From the IMG/VR virus record IMGVR_UViG_3300033066_001283, positions 32,001-96,000 of that record: a DNA stretch of 64,000 nt. The stretch is one strand, 5' to 3'. A model generated the notes under the pieces. That model saw only the letters and a list, made by a program, of their open reading frames with translations. It did not search any database and had not been told where the DNA came from. Both the position numbers and the translations under genes were made by a program. This DNA is from a virus (lineage: Duplodnaviria; Caudoviricetes). Below are positions 1 through 33,348 of the stretch, piece after piece. Position 1 is the stretch's first letter. Every line of letters starts with the position of its first letter.

Positions 1-195
1 TACATAAACAGTGTCACCCTCTTTAACATCAGGTGGAATTAAGTTACCATCAATATCGTATGCACCTGGGCCAGCAGAGATAACAGTACCCCATCTAGGA
101 GTCTTTTCTAGAATCTCAGTAATAAGAATTCCATCTTTCTCTGGGGGCTTTATCATCTCAAAAACTACGTAATTATTTAGTGCTTCAACTTTCAT
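1..195 (-). CDS. groES: Co-chaperonin GroES/Cpn10, 3' end cut by the window edge
   Basis: Not in the ORF track; translated by hand from the ATG at 195: MKVEALNNYVVFEMIKPPEKDGILITEILEKTPRWGTVISAGPGAYDIDGNLIPPDVKEGDTVYV. This matches the Cpn10 pattern (GIL mobile loop, GxVxxxGPG, PxDVKxGDxV). Confidence 0.9.
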   Translation of the reverse strand, partial: MKVEALNNYVVFEMIKPPEKDGILITEILEKTPRWGTVISAGPGAYDIDGNLIPPDVKEGDTVYV

Positions 196-24969: not shown

Positions 24970-27570
24970 TTAATAATCGTATTGTGGTGGAGGCTTGGGT
25001 TTATCATCTGGTGCATCCACTATCAATGTTTCAGTCATTAGGAAGATTCCAGCGATAGATCCAGCATTCTCAAGTGCTGAGATTTCCACCATTGCAGGAT
25101 CAATAATTCCTGCTTTAAACATATCTACGTATACTTCGTTCTTAGCATCAAAGCCAGTTCCGTACTCTGATTTAGAAACAGTATCTACAACCACATCAGC
25201 GGCTACACCAGCATTGAAAGCAATAGTCTTCATTGGTACTGCTAATGCTCTTTTAACAATCTCAATTCCAGCCTTCTCATCATCACTAGAGTAAGGTAAA
25301 GCTGATAAGGCATCTCTAGCGGCTAAGAGAGTAACTCCACCACCAGGAACGACTCCACCTTCTAGAGCAACCTTAGTAGCATTAATTGAATCTTCATATC
25401 TATACTTCTTCTCAGTCATTTCAGCCTCAGTAAAAGCTCCAAGCTTAATTACTGCAACACCACTAGAGAGTTTAGCAATTCGCTCAACAACCTTCTCTTG
25501 ATCATACTTACTATCTAATACAGCTAGGGATTCTTTAAGAGAAGCAATATGAGCGTCAACTGTTTCCTTAGTTCCTGCGCCTTCAATAATAGTTGTATCA
25601 TCTTTAGTAACAATAACCTTCTTAGCTTGACCAAGTTTATCAGGAGTGACATTCTCCAACTTAGAGCCTAAATCTTCAGAGAAATAAGTACCATTGGTTA
25701 GAATACCAATATCCTTCATCATATTCTTTCTCTGCTCACCAAACCTAGGAGCTCTAATCGCACAAACATTTATTCGACCTTGGATATGATTAACAATTAG
25801 GGTAGAAAGTGCATCTCCTTCAATTTCATCAGCCATAATTAGAAGTGGTCGCTGTGAAGGTGCAATCTTTTCTAGAAGAGGAATAAGTTCTGCAGCTCTA
25901 CTAATCTTTCGCTCCCAAATAAGAATATAAGGATTCTCTAATACAGATTCCATCTTCTCCTGGTTAGAAACAAAGAACTGAGAGAGCCAACCTCGATCAA
26001 AATTAAAACCTTCAACCACATCTAATACAGTTTCAGTATTTTTAGTTACTTCGAAGGTAACAACACCATCAGCTCCAACCTTGATAAAGGCGTCACTAAC
26101 ATGCTTACCTACTTCTTCACTGTTGCCTGAAATAGTTGAAACAAACTTAACTTCATTCTCATCAGTAACACTAATTTTCTTAATCTTACCTTTGATAAAC
26201 TGCACGGTTGCAGAAATAGCATTATCAATACCCTTCTTCAACAGAACAGGGTTTCCACCATTAGATAAGTATCTATTTCCTTCATTAACTAATGCTTGGG
26301 CTAGAATAGTAGCTGTAGAAGTATTGTGAGTAAGAATATAATTATCTGTAAAGTACAGGTTATCAGGATTACTTACCTTAATACATTGCATTTCAGTATA
26401 CTGTCCAGTGGGTGTAATTGAATCTATACTTATACCATATTTATACCCCTTTAATTCAGAAATACAGTATATAGCAGTGTTAGAATATGACCCATTCTCT
26501 TTTCGTTCCTTCTTATACCAAGAGGTAGCTTTACCTAAGCTTCTAAAAAGTTCAAGTACATCTAAACATAATTGCTCACTAATAGTTGAGTAGCTATGTA
26601 AACCACGGGCATTATAATGCCCGTCAGTGTCCATCAACCCCTCAAAAAGACGTTTTCGAGACTCTAAATCTGAATACAGATATTCTTTAGGAATAAATTT
26701 GGTTCCACTTTTTGTTCCAAGTAAGCCTATCTCTCTAACAAGATCATGAGGACTTTTCCCGTCTGGTGTTTTACCTTGAATTTTAACTCTATAATAATTT
26801 TTATTCTCAACCAAAGTTGTCTTTAAATAAAGACCTTCAGGCAACACAATTTTGTCTATAATATAGGAATCGTTTCTACCTAAAGAAAGTTCAATTGATC
26901 CACTGCCACTAAGACTTCCATCACCAATGAGAGCTCCTACTAAATAAGGATCAAGAACAAAGCTTCTAGTATTAAAGTTTGGAACACTAGTTTCAACATA
27001 GTATTTATGTATTTTAAATCCCTTCAAATCAGTAAAAGATACTTTAAGATTCATAAGTTCTTTAGTGGGAAGAATCTTTAATTTCCCTCTACTTTTTGAT
27101 CTAACTGCCCACAAATGGTCCTCACAGCATTCAACCTCTCTTTTATCAGAGAATTTAACTTTATAAATCTCCTTGGAGCCTTTAGGAAAAATTCCTAAAA
27201 CTTTCTGAACTGTTCCATTTGTTCCACAAATTTCATCTCCAACCTGAAGATCTTCCATTTTTACAAATCCATTAGGAGTAAGAACTCTGCTATAAAGAGG
27301 CTGAGGCCCATCACCTGTAACATCATTTGTCTTTGACGCAACCTGTTTGCATAGCTGTGCACCTGAATCTTCTAGTGGGTCCTTAAGACTAATCTCACGA
27401 GCAATGGTAACTCCATCCTTAGTTACAATAGAATTCCACTGCTTCTTAATAACGACATTCCTACCACGAGGCCCAAGTGTAACCTTAACAGCATCAGCAA
27501 TCTTATTGATTCCTTTAACCATGGCTTCTCGAGCCTGCGCACCATAAATAATATCTTTTCCGTTACTCAT
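24970..27570 (-). CDS. groEL: Chaperonin GroEL (Cpn60) precursor with intein; about 538 aa after splicing
   Basis: VKVTLGPRGRNV, TKDGVTIAREI, GDG|TSTATILA, EGFNFDRGW, ERIAKLSSGVAVIK, EGGVVPGGG, GIIDP. Confidence 0.97.
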   Translation of the reverse strand: MSNGKDIIYGAQAREAMVKGINKIADAVKVTLGPRGRNVVIKKQWNSIVTKDGVTIAREISLKDPLEDSGAQLCKQVASKTNDVTGDGPQPLYSRVLTPNGFVKMEDLQVGDEICGTNGTVQKVLGIFPKGSKEIYKVKFSDKREVECCEDHLWAVRSKSRGKLKILPTKELMNLKVSFTDLKGFKIHKYYVETSVPNFNTRSFVLDPYLVGALIGDGSLSGSGSIELSLGRNDSYIIDKIVLPEGLYLKTTLVENKNYYRVKIQGKTPDGKSPHDLVREIGLLGTKSGTKFIPKEYLYSDLESRKRLFEGLMDTDGHYNARGLHSYSTISEQLCLDVLELFRSLGKATSWYKKERKENGSYSNTAIYCISELKGYKYGISIDSITPTGQYTEMQCIKVSNPDNLYFTDNYILTHNTSTATILAQALVNEGNRYLSNGGNPVLLKKGIDNAISATVQFIKGKIKKISVTDENEVKFVSTISGNSEEVGKHVSDAFIKVGADGVVTFEVTKNTETVLDVVEGFNFDRGWLSQFFVSNQEKMESVLENPYILIWERKISRAAELIPLLEKIAPSQRPLLIMADEIEGDALSTLIVNHIQGRINVCAIRAPRFGEQRKNMMKDIGILTNGTYFSEDLGSKLENVTPDKLGQAKKVIVTKDDTTIIEGAGTKETVDAHIASLKESLAVLDSKYDQEKVVERIAKLSSGVAVIKLGAFTEAEMTEKKYRYEDSINATKVALEGGVVPGGGVTLLAARDALSALPYSSDDEKAGIEIVKRALAVPMKTIAFNAGVAADVVVDTVSKSEYGTGFDAKNEVYVDMFKAGIIDPAMVEISALENAGSIAGIFLMTETLIVDAPDDKPKPPPQYDY
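26323..27306 (-). mobile_element. Intein (328 aa, Pro1, class-3 WCT signature) with LAGLIDADG homing endonuclease, in groEL
   Basis: Starts PQPLYSRVLTPNG after GDG; block B EDHLW; block F MQCIKV; block G ILTHN/T. Endonuclease motifs LVGALIGDG and FEGLMDTDG. Confidence 0.93.
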
Positions 27571-30604: not shown

Positions 30605-30892
30605 TCAAGTAGAGGAAAGTGCTTGAATACTAAATTTTATTTTCATAGGTTCAGTATCTTCAATCTCATACGCCTTTAAGTAGAAGTAACTTAAGCCTTT
30701 AATTCCTTCATATTCGATAGCGTAGTTCTTAGAAGGACTTAACCTGCCTAAATCGGCAATTGCTTCTTCATCAACTAAGAACTCAAATTGCTCTTTATCT
30801 TGTGTTAAGCATTTAGCATTGAATACTAATTTCCTTTCCAGTAAATCTTCTAGTCCTGGAAGACCAGTTACTAATGAAACATATACTTTCAT
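30605..30892 (-). CDS. Hypothetical protein (start revised to MKVYVS at 30892)
   Basis: The ATG at 30892 overlaps the TAA of the glycosyltransferase gene (TAATG), as elsewhere in the window. Confidence 0.65.
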   Translation of the reverse strand: MKVYVSLVTGLPGLEDLLERKLVFNAKCLTQDKEQFEFLVDEEAIADLGRLSPSKNYAIEYEGIKGLSYFYLKAYEIEDTEPMKIKFSIQALSST

Positions 30893-33348
30893 TAGCCAAA
30901 TGCTCCCTCTCCACAACAAGATTTATACTTTCCACCTGAGTCACAAGGGCACGGATCATTTCTTCCCGCAGCGGCATAAGATTTATAGTATCTAGAATCC
31001 TTAATTACATCAGGAGGACCTACTTCCCCTCTAGCCACTTTCTCAGCCATAGCCTTCCAAGCTAGTGGCCAAAGATGGAAATTCTTCTCAAGAGAATACT
31101 GTTCAATGATTAAATCTCGACCCTTCTGCTTCATTGATTCTAACTTATCAGGATTATCAATCAAGAACTGAATAGCCTGTGCCCAAGTTCTAGCACAACC
31201 TTTTCCATTACCAACAGTTATTACCTTTCCTGGATGTTTTCTAGCAAACCTAGCATAGGGTCCAACATGGCTTGCAACCATAGCGGCTCCAGCGGCTGCA
31301 CCTTCTTCTATCTTAAGGCCTGAATTATGCTGTACAAATCCACCACCTAACCACTGTTCACCATCAGGAACAGAGATATCAAACACTTCATTCCTGCTTC
31401 TTTCAATTAAAACAATTGGATCAACAAAAGTAATAGGAACATATGCATTAGAATGGGGTCGAGAAATAATTGTTTTCATTCTCTCATTTTTTCTCTTACT
31501 CACAAAGCCAATTTCTCTATGAAAAATATCAGTATTTGCACGATTTAGATAAACTATACTTGCTTCATGAACACCATCATTTTGACATTTAACTGCTCTT
31601 CTATCAAGCTTAGCTACTATTCCAAATCCCAATAGAATTTCATGGACATCTTGCATTAACTTATGACTACAACTGGATATAGAACAACCACAGTCTTTAG
31701 ATACTGTACCATCTCCTTCAAACATTCCCTTTAAGAAAGCTGCAATTACACTCTTCTTTGATCTCCAGATAACATCAGGAATAGATAGTGTTTCTTTAGC
31801 TAGCTTTTTATTAGACTCAATACCCAATGATTTAAGAAATTCAGCCACAGGCTTAGATTGGACCGAAACATAAAACATATATCGATTGGTCGGTTGGTTT
31901 ATAGTTGGCTCTAATCCAACCATTCTAAGAAGATACACTATTCTATCTTTTACATCTTCATCTTGGCCAGAAACACAGATACTAATCTGTCCATTTTTCC
32001 CCACATGCCCATCACTTAGAATAAAGCCAAGTAGTTCAGCCCATATTTCATTTATTGTAATTATAGGTAACGAAGAGGCTAAGGTTTTATCAGACACCTT
32101 ACTATCTTTTCTAGTACAAGTCCAGAAGTATGGTACTTTAACATACGGAAGTTTATTTGAATGCTCAAATTGAGCTAGTTGAAGTTGATCACCAACTTGA
32201 AAATCCTTAGCATATTTCCAACCATTACCTCCGTCCTTTAATCTATGAGTTAAACTTACTTCAGTCTCAAACCCCCTCTTAGTGGTAATCTTAAGCGTAT
32301 CTTGAACTCCTGCTGAATAGAAATGAGTTGCAGATTTTACTCCATCTTGTGTATGAACATCCAACTTCAAAGGATAGAACATATCAGCTTCTCTTCCTTT
32401 ATGGAGATCTTCAATTTTAAAGATGCCTTTAGGAGTGTAAACCTTTGTACTTCCTACAACACATTTTGCTAGGTTAAATTGGCAGCTTAAAATTGGTGCT
32501 AATCCTATATCCCAAGCATGTAAACAAGTTGGGTGATCCATAAAATGCTTAGCCTCAATATGCTCAATCCTATCTTCAGGAATATCATAATGATTCTTAA
32601 ACCATTCAAACATTTGATAAGAAGAGTTAAATACAAAAAGCATATTAGGATTCTTCTCAAGAAGAGTCTTTATTGAAGATCCAATTAGTTTAAGGTCAGG
32701 AACGTGGGTCATACCACCACCCCAGCCAACTACAATCTTATCCTTCCAACGTTCTGGCCTAACAAATTCTTTCTTAGTAAAGATTGGATAACCATTATCC
32801 CACTGAACATCTACTCCCCAATCTCTAAAGCTAAAATCAATATAGTTATCTAAAACTGATACATTTCTATTCCACTGGTAGTACCACTTAGCAATTTCTG
32901 GAGTTGTAGTAGTAAATCCATGACAAGCTTCAATAACCTTAGGAAGCATCTTTAATTCTGGTGATCCAGGATGATAAGATACATATGCTGGTGATTCTGG
33001 AAGAACTGAATGAAGATCGTCGTCCAGCTCAAACACTAGCAATTTACCTTCCCATGCAACATGTCTGATAGTTTCATATACTTCTTTAGAGTGCTGCCTA
33101 GGAACAATAATTACATCGTGTTTAAAGAAATCATCCATTGAATGGAATGACGAATAGTGTACATCAGCACCATGCATCTTCAACATATGCAGAGGATTAA
33201 TAACTCTATAGTGGCCACAAGCAGAGGTATCCGCTACAAGACCTAATACTTTTAATCCTTTAAATCTATCACTAACTACTATATCTGGGTGGCCAGCTCT
33301 TTTAGGTGCTAAAAGAGTTTGCTTCTCTCTCTCAATTACTTCATTCAT
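30892..33348 (-). CDS. GT-B fold glycosyltransferase precursor with intein and C-terminal SEC-C motif; about 438 aa spliced
   Basis: ACGHYRVINPL, FELDDDL, VGWGGGMTHVPDL, DIGLAPIL..FNLAK|SGLKIEE...MVASHVGPY; C-terminal GRNDPCPCDSGGKYKSCCG. Confidence 0.88.
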   Translation of the reverse strand: MNEVIEREKQTLLAPKRAGHPDIVVSDRFKGLKVLGLVADTSACGHYRVINPLHMLKMHGADVHYSSFHSMDDFFKHDVIIVPRQHSKEVYETIRHVAWEGKLLVFELDDDLHSVLPESPAYVSYHPGSPELKMLPKVIEACHGFTTTTPEIAKWYYQWNRNVSVLDNYIDFSFRDWGVDVQWDNGYPIFTKKEFVRPERWKDKIVVGWGGGMTHVPDLKLIGSSIKTLLEKNPNMLFVFNSSYQMFEWFKNHYDIPEDRIEHIEAKHFMDHPTCLHAWDIGLAPILSCQFNLAKCVVGSTKVYTPKGIFKIEDLHKGREADMFYPLKLDVHTQDGVKSATHFYSAGVQDTLKITTKRGFETEVSLTHRLKDGGNGWKYAKDFQVGDQLQLAQFEHSNKLPYVKVPYFWTCTRKDSKVSDKTLASSLPIITINEIWAELLGFILSDGHVGKNGQISICVSGQDEDVKDRIVYLLRMVGLEPTINQPTNRYMFYVSVQSKPVAEFLKSLGIESNKKLAKETLSIPDVIWRSKKSVIAAFLKGMFEGDGTVSKDCGCSISSCSHKLMQDVHEILLGFGIVAKLDRRAVKCQNDGVHEASIVYLNRANTDIFHREIGFVSKRKNERMKTIISRPHSNAYVPITFVDPIVLIERSRNEVFDISVPDGEQWLGGGFVQHNSGLKIEEGAAAGAAMVASHVGPYARFARKHPGKVITVGNGKGCARTWAQAIQFLIDNPDKLESMKQKGRDLIIEQYSLEKNFHLWPLAWKAMAEKVARGEVGPPDVIKDSRYYKSYAAAGRNDPCPCDSGGKYKSCCGEGAFG
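31324..32463 (-). mobile_element. Intein (380 aa, class 1) with LAGLIDADG homing endonuclease, in the glycosyltransferase
   Basis: CVVGSTKV start, SLTHRL, LLGFILSDG, FLKGMFEGDG, VFDISV, VQHN/S end. Confidence 0.93.

What the first reader, a model, noticed from the sequence alone, without database searches (positions are those of the whole stretch)
24970..27570. Phage GroEL whose ATP-binding motif is split by a Pro1 class-3 intein
Seen: a 328-aa insert lies exactly between G88 and the Thr of the chaperonin phosphate-binding motif, and removing it restores NDVTGDG-TSTATILAQ. The insert starts with Pro instead of Cys/Ser and has the complete class-3 triad: Trp in block B (EDHLW), Cys in block F (MQCIKV) and Thr in block G (THN). 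It also carries two LAGLIDADG motifs. Established: class-3 inteins splice through the block-F Cys, and inteins mostly occupy replication, repair and nucleotide-metabolism proteins; I do not know of a characterised chaperonin intein. Inference: the ATPase cannot work until splicing occurs. A Cys-dependent intein, which also has a CC pair in block B, could make chaperonin supply and hence virion assembly conditional on redox state, metals or temperature.
Basis: partly seen in the sequence, partly recalled or inferred. Interest (0 to 1): 0.9.

Follow-up and report, generated by a model that had tools for sequence, protein, structure and literature searches.

The report
Class-3 homing intein in phage GroEL
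A phage chaperonin (GroEL) gene is interrupted, exactly in its ATP-binding loop, by an ordinary mobile class-3 intein with a homing endonuclease; the host protein appears new for inteins, the element occurs in hundreds of uncultured phages, and nothing shows it acts as a switch.

Summary
The 866-aa ORF at window 24970..27570 (-) is a GroEL. A 328-aa insert (26323..27306) lies between G88 and T89 (E. coli numbering) of the GDG|TTT phosphate loop.

The insert has all sequence marks of a class-3 intein: Pro1, His64, Trp66, Cys308, Thr326, His327, Asn328 and Thr+1. It also has two LAGLIDADG motifs with both catalytic Asp residues. These residues are invariant or nearly so in 121 homologous GroEL inteins. 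An AlphaFold model (pLDDT 95) matches PI-SceI and solved class-3 DnaB inteins.

Two natural intein-free alleles (537 and 538 aa, 97% and 95% identical exteins) show a precise 984-nt insertion. Substitutions cluster around the junction.

Inteins are far more alike (56%) than their GroEL hosts (34%), and the two divergences are uncorrelated. This points to horizontal homing.

Pro1 is not unusual, because the prototype class-3 intein also starts with Pro. The CC pair is a trait of the wider intein family. The redox/metal switch idea has no specific support.

No GroEL intein was found in the searched literature or in deposited phage genomes. IMG/VR holds hundreds, and this scan has flagged it before in other genomes.

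Verdict: a new host protein for a known kind of element, of moderate interest.

The parts
24970..27570 (-). groEL precursor ORF, 866 aa plus stop (P0001)
   Evidence: TIGR02348 641.9 bits in two stretches
27307..27570 (-). N-extein, residues 1-88, ending ...NDVTGDG (G88 = E. coli GroEL G88)
26323..27306 (-). Intein, 328 aa (984 nt), residues 89-416: HINT splicing domain with an embedded LAGLIDADG endonuclease
   Evidence: Exactly absent from alleles L002 and L003. AF2 pLDDT 95.2. Foldseek PI-SceI 1.6e-16; class-3 DnaB inteins TMt 0.77-0.80
24973..26322 (-). C-extein, residues 417-866, starting with Thr+1 (TSTATILAQ...)
27304..27306 (-). Intein residue 1 = Pro (block A), with no N-terminal nucleophile
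   Evidence: P in 120 of 121 homologs, C in 1
27109..27132 (-). Block B ECCEDHLW: Cys60, Cys61, His64 (B:10), Trp66 (B:12)
   Evidence: C60, H64 and W66 in 121/121; C61 in 103/121
26911..26943 (-). LAGLIDADG motif 1 (LVGALIGDGSL), catalytic Asp129
   Evidence: D129 in 119/121; Pfam LAGLIDADG_3 22.7 bits
26617..26649 (-). LAGLIDADG motif 2 (LFEGLMDTDGH), catalytic Asp228
   Evidence: D228 in 120/121
26374..26391 (-). Block F MQCIKV with Cys308 (F:4), the predicted initiating nucleophile
   Evidence: C308 in 121/121 GroEL inteins and 60/60 non-GroEL relatives
26320..26337 (-). Block G ILTHN (Thr326 G:5, His327, Asn328) plus Thr+1 of the C-extein
   Evidence: T, H, N and T+1 all 121/121

Best explanation
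The gene encodes a GroEL precursor that carries a functional, selfish class-3 intein with an embedded double-motif LAGLIDADG homing endonuclease. The intein sits between G88 and T89 of the phosphate-binding loop.

Inferred splicing mechanism, by homology with the Bethlehem DnaB and mycobacterial DnaB class-3 inteins:
1. Cys308 (block F:4), helped by His64 and Trp66, attacks the Gly88-Pro89 peptide bond. This forms a block-F thioester branch.
2. The N-extein is passed to the side chain of Thr+1.
3. Asn328 cyclises, helped by His327, and releases the intein.
4. An O-to-N shift restores GDG-TST, giving a 538-aa GroEL with an intact ATP site.

The freed intein's endonuclease would then cut intein-less groEL alleles of co-infecting related phages at the GDG|T coding sequence. 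Repair from the intein-bearing copy would spread the element together with a short flanking conversion tract.

Shown here: the anatomy, conservation, fold, precise presence/absence polymorphism, clustered flank substitutions, and the decoupling of intein and extein history. Inferred: actual splicing and DNA cleavage. No regulatory role is needed to explain the data.
For: - The GroEL is split at profile position 86/87, and G88 equals E. coli G88.
- PDB sequence matches: gp41-1 intein 7e-12; class-3 MchDnaB1 (6rix, 6riy) 2.4e-5 and 5e-5; class-3 Msm DnaBi1 (6bs8) 6.5e-4.
- P1, H64, W66, C308, T326, H327, N328 and T+1 are invariant or nearly so in 121 GroEL inteins. H, W, C, T and N are invariant in the 60 nearest non-GroEL relatives.
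- The endonuclease Asp residues are kept: D129 in 119/121 and D228 in 120/121.
- The AF2 model has pLDDT 95.2 and pTM 0.91. Foldseek gives PI-SceI 1.6e-16, VMA inteins, and TMt of 0.80 for 6bs8 and 0.77-0.78 for 6rix/6riy.
- Intein-less alleles P0265 and P0266 have 97% and 95% identical exteins and the same neighbours, RuvC upstream and the 273-, 204- and 175-aa ORFs downstream.
- The difference is exactly 984 nt. 21 of 90 nt differ within 45 nt of the junction against 98 of 1470 elsewhere (Fisher p = 1.2e-6). 6 of 8 amino-acid differences lie between -12 and +4.
- Mean intein identity is 56% against 34.5% for exteins. The intein is the more similar part in 99% of 595 pairs. Spearman correlation is 0.06.
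- 64 of the 80 best IMG/VR loci carry GDG|intein|T.
- The prototype class-3 intein has Pro1 and Thr+1 and splices efficiently (PMC2807308). The class definition is in PMC5050341.
Against: - No experiment shows splicing or DNA cleavage.
- Grafting the WCT triplet alone onto gp41-1 did not give productive splicing (PMC7664689). The motif is therefore necessary but not sufficient.
- The clustered flank substitutions could instead reflect endonuclease-resistant target sites in the empty alleles rather than a conversion tract.
- Extein identities between such divergent phage GroELs depend on alignment quality. However, pairwise global alignments gave the same result as the multiple alignment.
Confidence: 0.85

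Rival explanations
1. Conditional protein splicing is used by the phage as a switch. Oxidants, Zn or temperature would reversibly block Cys308, for example through a disulfide with Cys60, Cys61 or Cys27. Phage chaperonin supply, and hence assembly, would then be gated by the state of the host cell.
For: - The related class-3 Msm DnaBi1 is reversibly inhibited by H2O2 through a disulfide of its block-F Cys with a second Cys (PMC6195587), and is temperature sensitive (PMC13476343).
- N-cleavage of MchDnaB1 is inhibited by H2O2 (PMC7664689).
- This intein has three invariant Cys (C27, C60, C308) plus C61 in 103/121.
- C61 occupies block B:7, which sits next to the N-scissile bond in the Bethlehem model.
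Against: - Cys60 and Cys61 are family traits of non-GroEL relatives (40/60 and 20/60). 18 of 121 GroEL inteins have Ser61.
- Sister phages with 95-97% identical GroEL lack the intein altogether, so it is dispensable.
- The distribution and flank signatures fit selfish homing.
- Chemical sensitivity of any Cys-dependent intein is expected and does not show adaptive use.
Confidence: 0.1
2. The intein is splicing-dead or decaying, and the interrupted groEL is a pseudogene or yields only a non-functional precursor.
For: Pfam and NCBIfam intein models hit only below their cut-offs (Hom_end_hint 22.7 against 32.1; intein_Nterm 18.8-20.6 against 24.5). A class-3 intein pseudogene is known (Arthrobacter Arth_1007, PMC3196547, listed).
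Against: - The 866-aa frame is intact.
- Every catalytic residue of the splicing and endonuclease domains is conserved across 121 homologs at only 51-66% identity.
- The exteins still score above the GroEL equivalog cut-off.
- The phage keeps a Cpn10 partner gene.
- The weak profile hits are explained by those models being built mainly on class-1 inteins.
Confidence: 0.03
3. The element splices by a different route from class 3. For example, Thr+1 could attack the N-junction directly (class-2/KlbA-like), with Cys308 only structural.
For: It has no N-terminal nucleophile, as in class 2. A few GroEL-lineage members have Cys1 (P0144, P0152, P0191, P0202), which shows some plasticity at position 1.
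Against: The complete WCT triplet with His B:10 is invariant. The closest characterised relatives are class 3. In the Bethlehem intein only mutations of the block-F Cys, His65 and Trp67 blocked N-terminal cleavage.
Confidence: 0.02

Closest known systems
Mycobacteriophage Bethlehem DnaB intein (prototype class-3 intein; PMC2807308)
   Same: Pro1, His B:10, Trp B:12, Cys F:4, Thr G:5, C-terminal Asn and Thr+1. Similar size (341 against 328 aa). Embedded LAGLIDADG endonuclease. Phage origin. Insertion in a nucleotide-binding protein.
   Different: The host protein is a helicase, not a chaperonin. B:7 is Ser rather than Cys. Related full-length class-3 inteins in helicases, terminases and DarB-like proteins of deposited phages are only about 31-34% identical to this one.
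Mycobacterial DnaB class-3 mini-inteins: Msm DnaBi1 (6bs8) and MchDnaB1 (6rix, 6riy)
   Same: Same HINT fold (TMt 0.77-0.80) and the same WCT/His catalytic set. They sit in a phosphate loop immediately before a Thr (Walker A GK|T against GDG|T).
   Different: They are mini-inteins without an endonuclease, in cellular DnaB. Redox, Zn and heat sensitivity has been shown for Msm DnaBi1 (PMC6195587, PMC13476343), but nothing has been shown here. The redox partner Cys48 of DnaBi1 is not at the position of Cys60/61.
gp41-1 split intein (6qaz) and its WCT-grafted variant (6riz)
   Same: Best PDB sequence match to the N-terminal splicing half (7e-12). Shares Cys at B:6 and Thr at G:5. Comes from a phage metagenome.
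   Different: gp41-1 is a class-1, naturally split intein with Cys1. The WCT graft alone does not splice productively (PMC7664689).
PI-SceI and VMA inteins (1vde, 1ef0, 7qsu)
   Same: Overall two-domain architecture of HINT plus double LAGLIDADG endonuclease (Foldseek E 1e-16 to 1e-13, TMq 0.60-0.69). Inserted in an ATPase.
   Different: Class-1 mechanism (Cys1), eukaryotic or archaeal V-ATPase host, 13-17% sequence identity.
Phage-encoded GroEL chaperonins (deposited Bacteroides, Flavobacterium and Vibrio phages; EL gp146-type, 6tmt)
   Same: Phage group-I chaperonin without a GGM tail. Extein identity is 41-49% to the deposited phage GroELs. A Cpn10 gene is present in the same genome.
   Different: None of the 50,697 deposited phage records covers the intein part within a GroEL (0 records with at least 80% coverage).

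Membership tests
Class-3 intein | No Ser/Thr/Cys nucleophile at intein position 1 (block A:1) | tested here: met
   Pro1; P in 120/121 GroEL-lineage homologs. Definition from PMC5050341.
Class-3 intein | Trp at block B:12, two residues after the block B:10 His | tested here: met
   EDHLW with H64 and W66: 121/121 and 60/60 non-GroEL relatives.
Class-3 intein | Cys at block F:4 | tested here: met
   MQCIKV with C308: 121/121 and 60/60. It aligns with the block-F Cys of MchDnaB1.
Class-3 intein | Thr at block G:5, C-terminal His-Asn, nucleophilic +1 residue | tested here: met
   T326, H327, N328 and Thr+1 all 121/121.
Class-3 intein | HINT fold and homology to experimentally proven class-3 inteins | tested here: met
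   phmmer: 6rix 2.4e-5, 6bs8 6.5e-4. Foldseek TMt 0.77-0.80 with a pLDDT-95 model.
Class-3 intein | Splicing through a block-F Cys branched thioester intermediate | not testable with these tools
   Needs expression, C308 mutants and trapping of the intermediate.
LAGLIDADG homing endonuclease (double-motif, intein-embedded) | Two LAGLIDADG motifs, each with a catalytic acidic residue | tested here: met
   LIGDG (D129 in 119/121) and MDTDG (D228 in 120/121). Pfam LAGLIDADG_3 scores 22.7 bits against a cut-off of 22.5 on the intein alone.
LAGLIDADG homing endonuclease (double-motif, intein-embedded) | Endonuclease fold inserted within the HINT domain | tested here: met
   Foldseek matches to PI-SceI, PI-PfuI, VMA inteins and I-DmoI.
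LAGLIDADG homing endonuclease (double-motif, intein-embedded) | Site-specific cleavage of the intein-less allele, and homing | not testable with these tools
   Only indirect evidence: a precise presence/absence polymorphism with clustered flank substitutions, and intein/extein decoupling.
GroEL (group I chaperonin) | Full-length match above the curated equivalog cut-off | tested here: met
   TIGR02348 641.9 bits against a cut-off of 582.1, despite the insert.
GroEL (group I chaperonin) | Intact GDGTTT-type phosphate loop after intein removal | tested here: met
   GDG|TST after removal. The natural empty alleles read GDGSTT.
GroEL (group I chaperonin) | Co-chaperonin available | tested here: met
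   A 203-aa ORF with two Cpn10 domains lies in the same virus record. Whether the two proteins work together was not tested.

The most novel reading that the evidence does not exclude
The intein makes phage chaperonin production self-referential or host-directed, in one of two ways. In the first, GroEL (the host's, or already spliced phage GroEL) stabilises the class-3 precursor, as shown for Msm DnaBi1 (PMC13476343). Maturation of the phage chaperonin would then be autocatalytic and sensitive to stress, redox state or temperature. In the second, the endonuclease recognises the near-universal GDG|TTT coding sequence and also cuts the host groEL gene, working as a host-shutoff weapon as well as a homing device.
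Probability: 0.07. Interest if true: 0.7.

Novelty: new member of a known kind. Interest (0 to 1): 0.4.

Why it matters
It adds a protein-folding machine to the list of intein hosts, which is dominated by replication, repair, packaging and nucleotide-metabolism enzymes. The insertion again sits in a phosphate-binding loop directly before a Thr. This strengthens the rule that these elements target nucleotide-binding motifs and can hop between them.

The lineage is abundant in uncultured large phages, and natural intein-plus and intein-minus sister alleles are available. That makes it a convenient system for three tests:
- homing in phage populations;
- class-3 chemistry with native exteins;
- whether conditional splicing has any consequence for a 14-mer assembly, where unspliced subunits could be excluded or poisonous.

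For annotation, such GroELs are currently labelled plain 'chaperonin GroEL' or left unnamed.

Tried and rejected
I therefore have no habitat or expression data and laid no reads.
- The coordinates of the AF2 model were not available to scripts, so I measured no distances for Cys308 to the junction or Cys308 to Cys60/61.
- P0267 (760 aa) first looked like a GroEL with a shorter insert. It is a bacterial GroEL with an internal duplication or assembly chimera, not an intein.
- I considered a group I intron with an in-frame LAGLIDADG ORF. I rejected it because the frame is continuous and the insert folds as a HINT domain with all the splice-junction residues.
- PHROGs gave nothing for most neighbouring ORFs, so I did not establish the host or the phage family. 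The nearest cellular GroELs are Armatimonadota/Fimbriimonadales at about 56% identity, which is too weak to name a host.
- The GTDB genome scan found only two GroEL-lineage copies. Both are on short MAG contigs of 7.8 and 5.1 kb, one binned as Candidatus Nomurabacteria. These are probably phage fragments. The other hits I could parse are class-3 inteins at other sites, chiefly the DnaB-type SMGK|TA Walker A junction (11 loci).
- A Pfam scan of the middle of the 3178-aa ORF gave no hit.
Full report
**What is there**

Window 24970..27570 (-) is a single open frame of 866 aa (P0001).
- NCBIfam's GroEL equivalog model scores 641.9 bits against a cut-off of 582.1. It matches in two stretches that break at profile position 86/87.
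- The first 88 residues align to E. coli GroEL so that the last N-extein residue is G88.
- By established knowledge of GroEL, D87 is needed for ATP hydrolysis and T89-T91 contact the phosphates. The 328-aa insert (residues 89-416, window 26323..27306) therefore splits the phosphate loop GDG|TTT.
- The record is an IMG/VR virus contig of 150,263 bp, estimated 80% complete. All genes in the window lie on one strand, and the neighbours include a RuvC-like resolvase and a baseplate wedge protein. 'Phage GroEL' is therefore correct.

**Proof that it is an insertion**

P0001's own 90% cluster is represented by a 537-aa protein, P0265.
- P0265 is 97% identical to both exteins and reads ...NDVCGDG|STTGTILAQ without any insert.
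- A second intein-free allele, P0266 (538 aa, 95% identical), has the same junction sequence.
- P0265's contigs (L002, L003) have the same gene order: RuvC, groEL, then the 273-, 204- and 175-aa ORFs.
- At the DNA level the two forms differ by exactly 984 nt.
- Substitutions pile up around the junction: 21 of 90 nt within 45 nt of it, against 98 of 1470 elsewhere (Fisher p = 1.2e-6). They span about -42 to +12 nt. Six of the eight amino-acid differences in the first 520 codons lie between residues -12 and +4.
- This is what a homing co-conversion tract would look like. The alternative is target-site divergence that makes the empty alleles resistant. I cannot tell these two apart.

**Class-3 membership**

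The class is defined by the lack of a nucleophile at A:1 and by the Trp-Cys-Thr triplet at B:12, F:4 and G:5 (PMC5050341).
- Here P1, H64 (B:10), W66 (B:12), C308 (F:4), T326 (G:5), H327, N328 and T+1 are all present. In 121 homologous GroEL inteins that are only 51-66% identical to this one, P1 is kept in 120 of 121 and the other seven residues in all 121.
- H, W, C, T and N are also invariant in the 60 nearest relatives that sit in other proteins.
- Sequence searches of the PDB give gp41-1 (7e-12) and the class-3 DnaB inteins MchDnaB1 (2.4e-5) and Msm DnaBi1 (6.5e-4).
- An AlphaFold model built on 96 homologs is very confident (pLDDT 95.2, pTM 0.91).
- The model matches PI-SceI (E = 1.6e-16) and VMA inteins over both domains. 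It matches the class-3 DnaB mini-inteins over the HINT part (TMt 0.77-0.80).
- The only defining feature I could not test is the chemistry itself.
- Pro1 is not unusual. The founding class-3 intein, from mycobacteriophage Bethlehem DnaB, begins with Pro1, has Thr+1, is 341 aa long and splices efficiently (PMC2807308).

**Endonuclease and mobility**

- Both LAGLIDADG catalytic aspartates are conserved: D129 in 119/121 and D228 in 120/121. The endonuclease part is about as conserved as the splicing part (53% against 57% mean identity).
- Across 595 pairs of GroEL inteins, mean intein identity is 56% while the host exteins are only 34.5% identical.
- The intein is the more similar part in 99% of pairs, and the two divergences are uncorrelated (Spearman 0.06, p = 0.12) (multiple-alignment version).
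- Together with the presence/absence polymorphism, this indicates repeated horizontal homing into very divergent phage groEL genes. The one shared feature of those genes is the GDG|TTT coding sequence, for which only codon-constrained positions are conserved in the flanks.

**Family relations**

- The exhaustive search found 17,320 cluster representatives at E <= 0.001 and 3,106 at E <= 1e-30.
- After the GroEL group, the nearest relatives (25-37% identity) start with A/P-Q-P-L and end THN|T/S. They sit mostly between the Walker A Lys and the following Thr/Ser (GxGK|T), and at a few other sites.
- Deposited phages carry such relatives in helicases, large terminases and DarB-like proteins.
- GDG|T is thus another phosphate loop followed by a Thr. 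This echoes the idea that similar nucleotide-binding sites let these inteins switch hosts (bioRxiv 10.1101/2025.01.02.630785).

**How common, and is it known?**

- IMG/VR holds 510 stretches matching lineage-specific patterns. 64 of the 80 best loci have GDG|intein|T, on contigs of up to 390 kb from many samples.
- In 185,579 species genomes, only two short MAG contigs carry it. It is essentially a phage element and has not colonised cellular groEL.
- None of the 50,697 deposited phage records has a GroEL that covers the intein.
- No paper in the searchable library contains 'GroEL intein', 'chaperonin intein' or similar phrases.
- Neither the virioplankton chaperonin survey (PMC5649160) nor the actinobacteriophage intein surveys mention one.
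- NCBIfam has intein-exception models for GyrA, Tes and others, but none matched here as a GroEL exception.
- This scan's own notes show that first readers flagged the same element in at least three other genomes.

**The switch idea**

There are precedents. Msm DnaBi1 is reversibly blocked by a disulfide of its block-F Cys (PMC6195587) and is heat sensitive (PMC13476343). This intein has invariant C27, C60 and C308, and C61 at B:7 lies next to the scissile bond. Chemical sensitivity to oxidants and Zn is therefore plausible.

Several observations weigh against an evolved switch:
- The CC pair is shared with non-GroEL relatives.
- 18 of 121 GroEL inteins have Ser61.
- Sister phages do without the intein.
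- Every population signature fits a selfish element.

I rate adaptive regulation at about 0.1.

**Verdict**

This is a real, well-preserved class-3 homing intein in a host protein that appears new for inteins. It is widespread but apparently undescribed. I class it as a new member of a known kind, of moderate interest.

Noticed in passing
window 30892..33348 (-), 818-aa ORF (P0385): A second intein in the same phage. It is a class-1 type (starts CVVGST, ends VQHN followed by S) with a strong LAGLIDADG domain (Pfam 72.9 bits). It is inserted in a glycosyltransferase-like protein that ends in a SEC-C motif. A glycosyltransferase is also an unusual intein host.
   Followed up: partly
window 51562..61098 (-), 3178-aa ORF; weak hit at about 55630..55839: A weak intein N-terminal match (TIGR01445, E = 0.003). 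Read by eye, there is a segment ending LATHN|T and another starting CVDIETEILTENG. This suggests one or two further inteins in the giant ORF. Pfam found nothing in that segment.
   Followed up: partly
G000:C1:31608-32192 (-), which overlaps window 1..192: A 203-aa ORF holds two tandem Cpn10 (GroES) domains, both above the Pfam cut-off. The phage thus encodes a double-domain co-chaperonin as well as GroEL.
   Followed up: no
G000:C1:114118-114336 (-), outside the window; 785-aa ORF (L009): Another weak intein N-terminal hit (E = 0.004). The genome may be intein-rich.
   Followed up: no
P0144, P0152, P0191, P0202 (GroEL inteins from other metagenomes): A few members of the GroEL-intein lineage start with Cys1 (GDG|CQPL...) while keeping the block B His-x-Trp and the THN|T junction; MRCIKV in block F was seen only in P0202, by a narrow pattern search. 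These may be class-3/class-1 intermediates.
   Followed up: partly
L090 (bacterial isolate M50B98 contig, 7.8 kb) and L091 (Candidatus Nomurabacteria MAG contig, 5.1 kb): These are the only two GroEL-lineage inteins found in 185,579 species genomes. Both are on short contigs, which could be phage DNA binned into MAGs or a real CPR-associated element.
   Followed up: partly
L002 1274-2887 and L003 729-2342 (intein-less alleles): The empty alleles read GDG|STTG. Ser at +1 never occurs, and Gly at +4 occurs in only 1 of 121, among the intein-bearing GroELs. The canonical sequence is GDGTTTAT. This could be target-site divergence that confers endonuclease resistance.
   Followed up: partly
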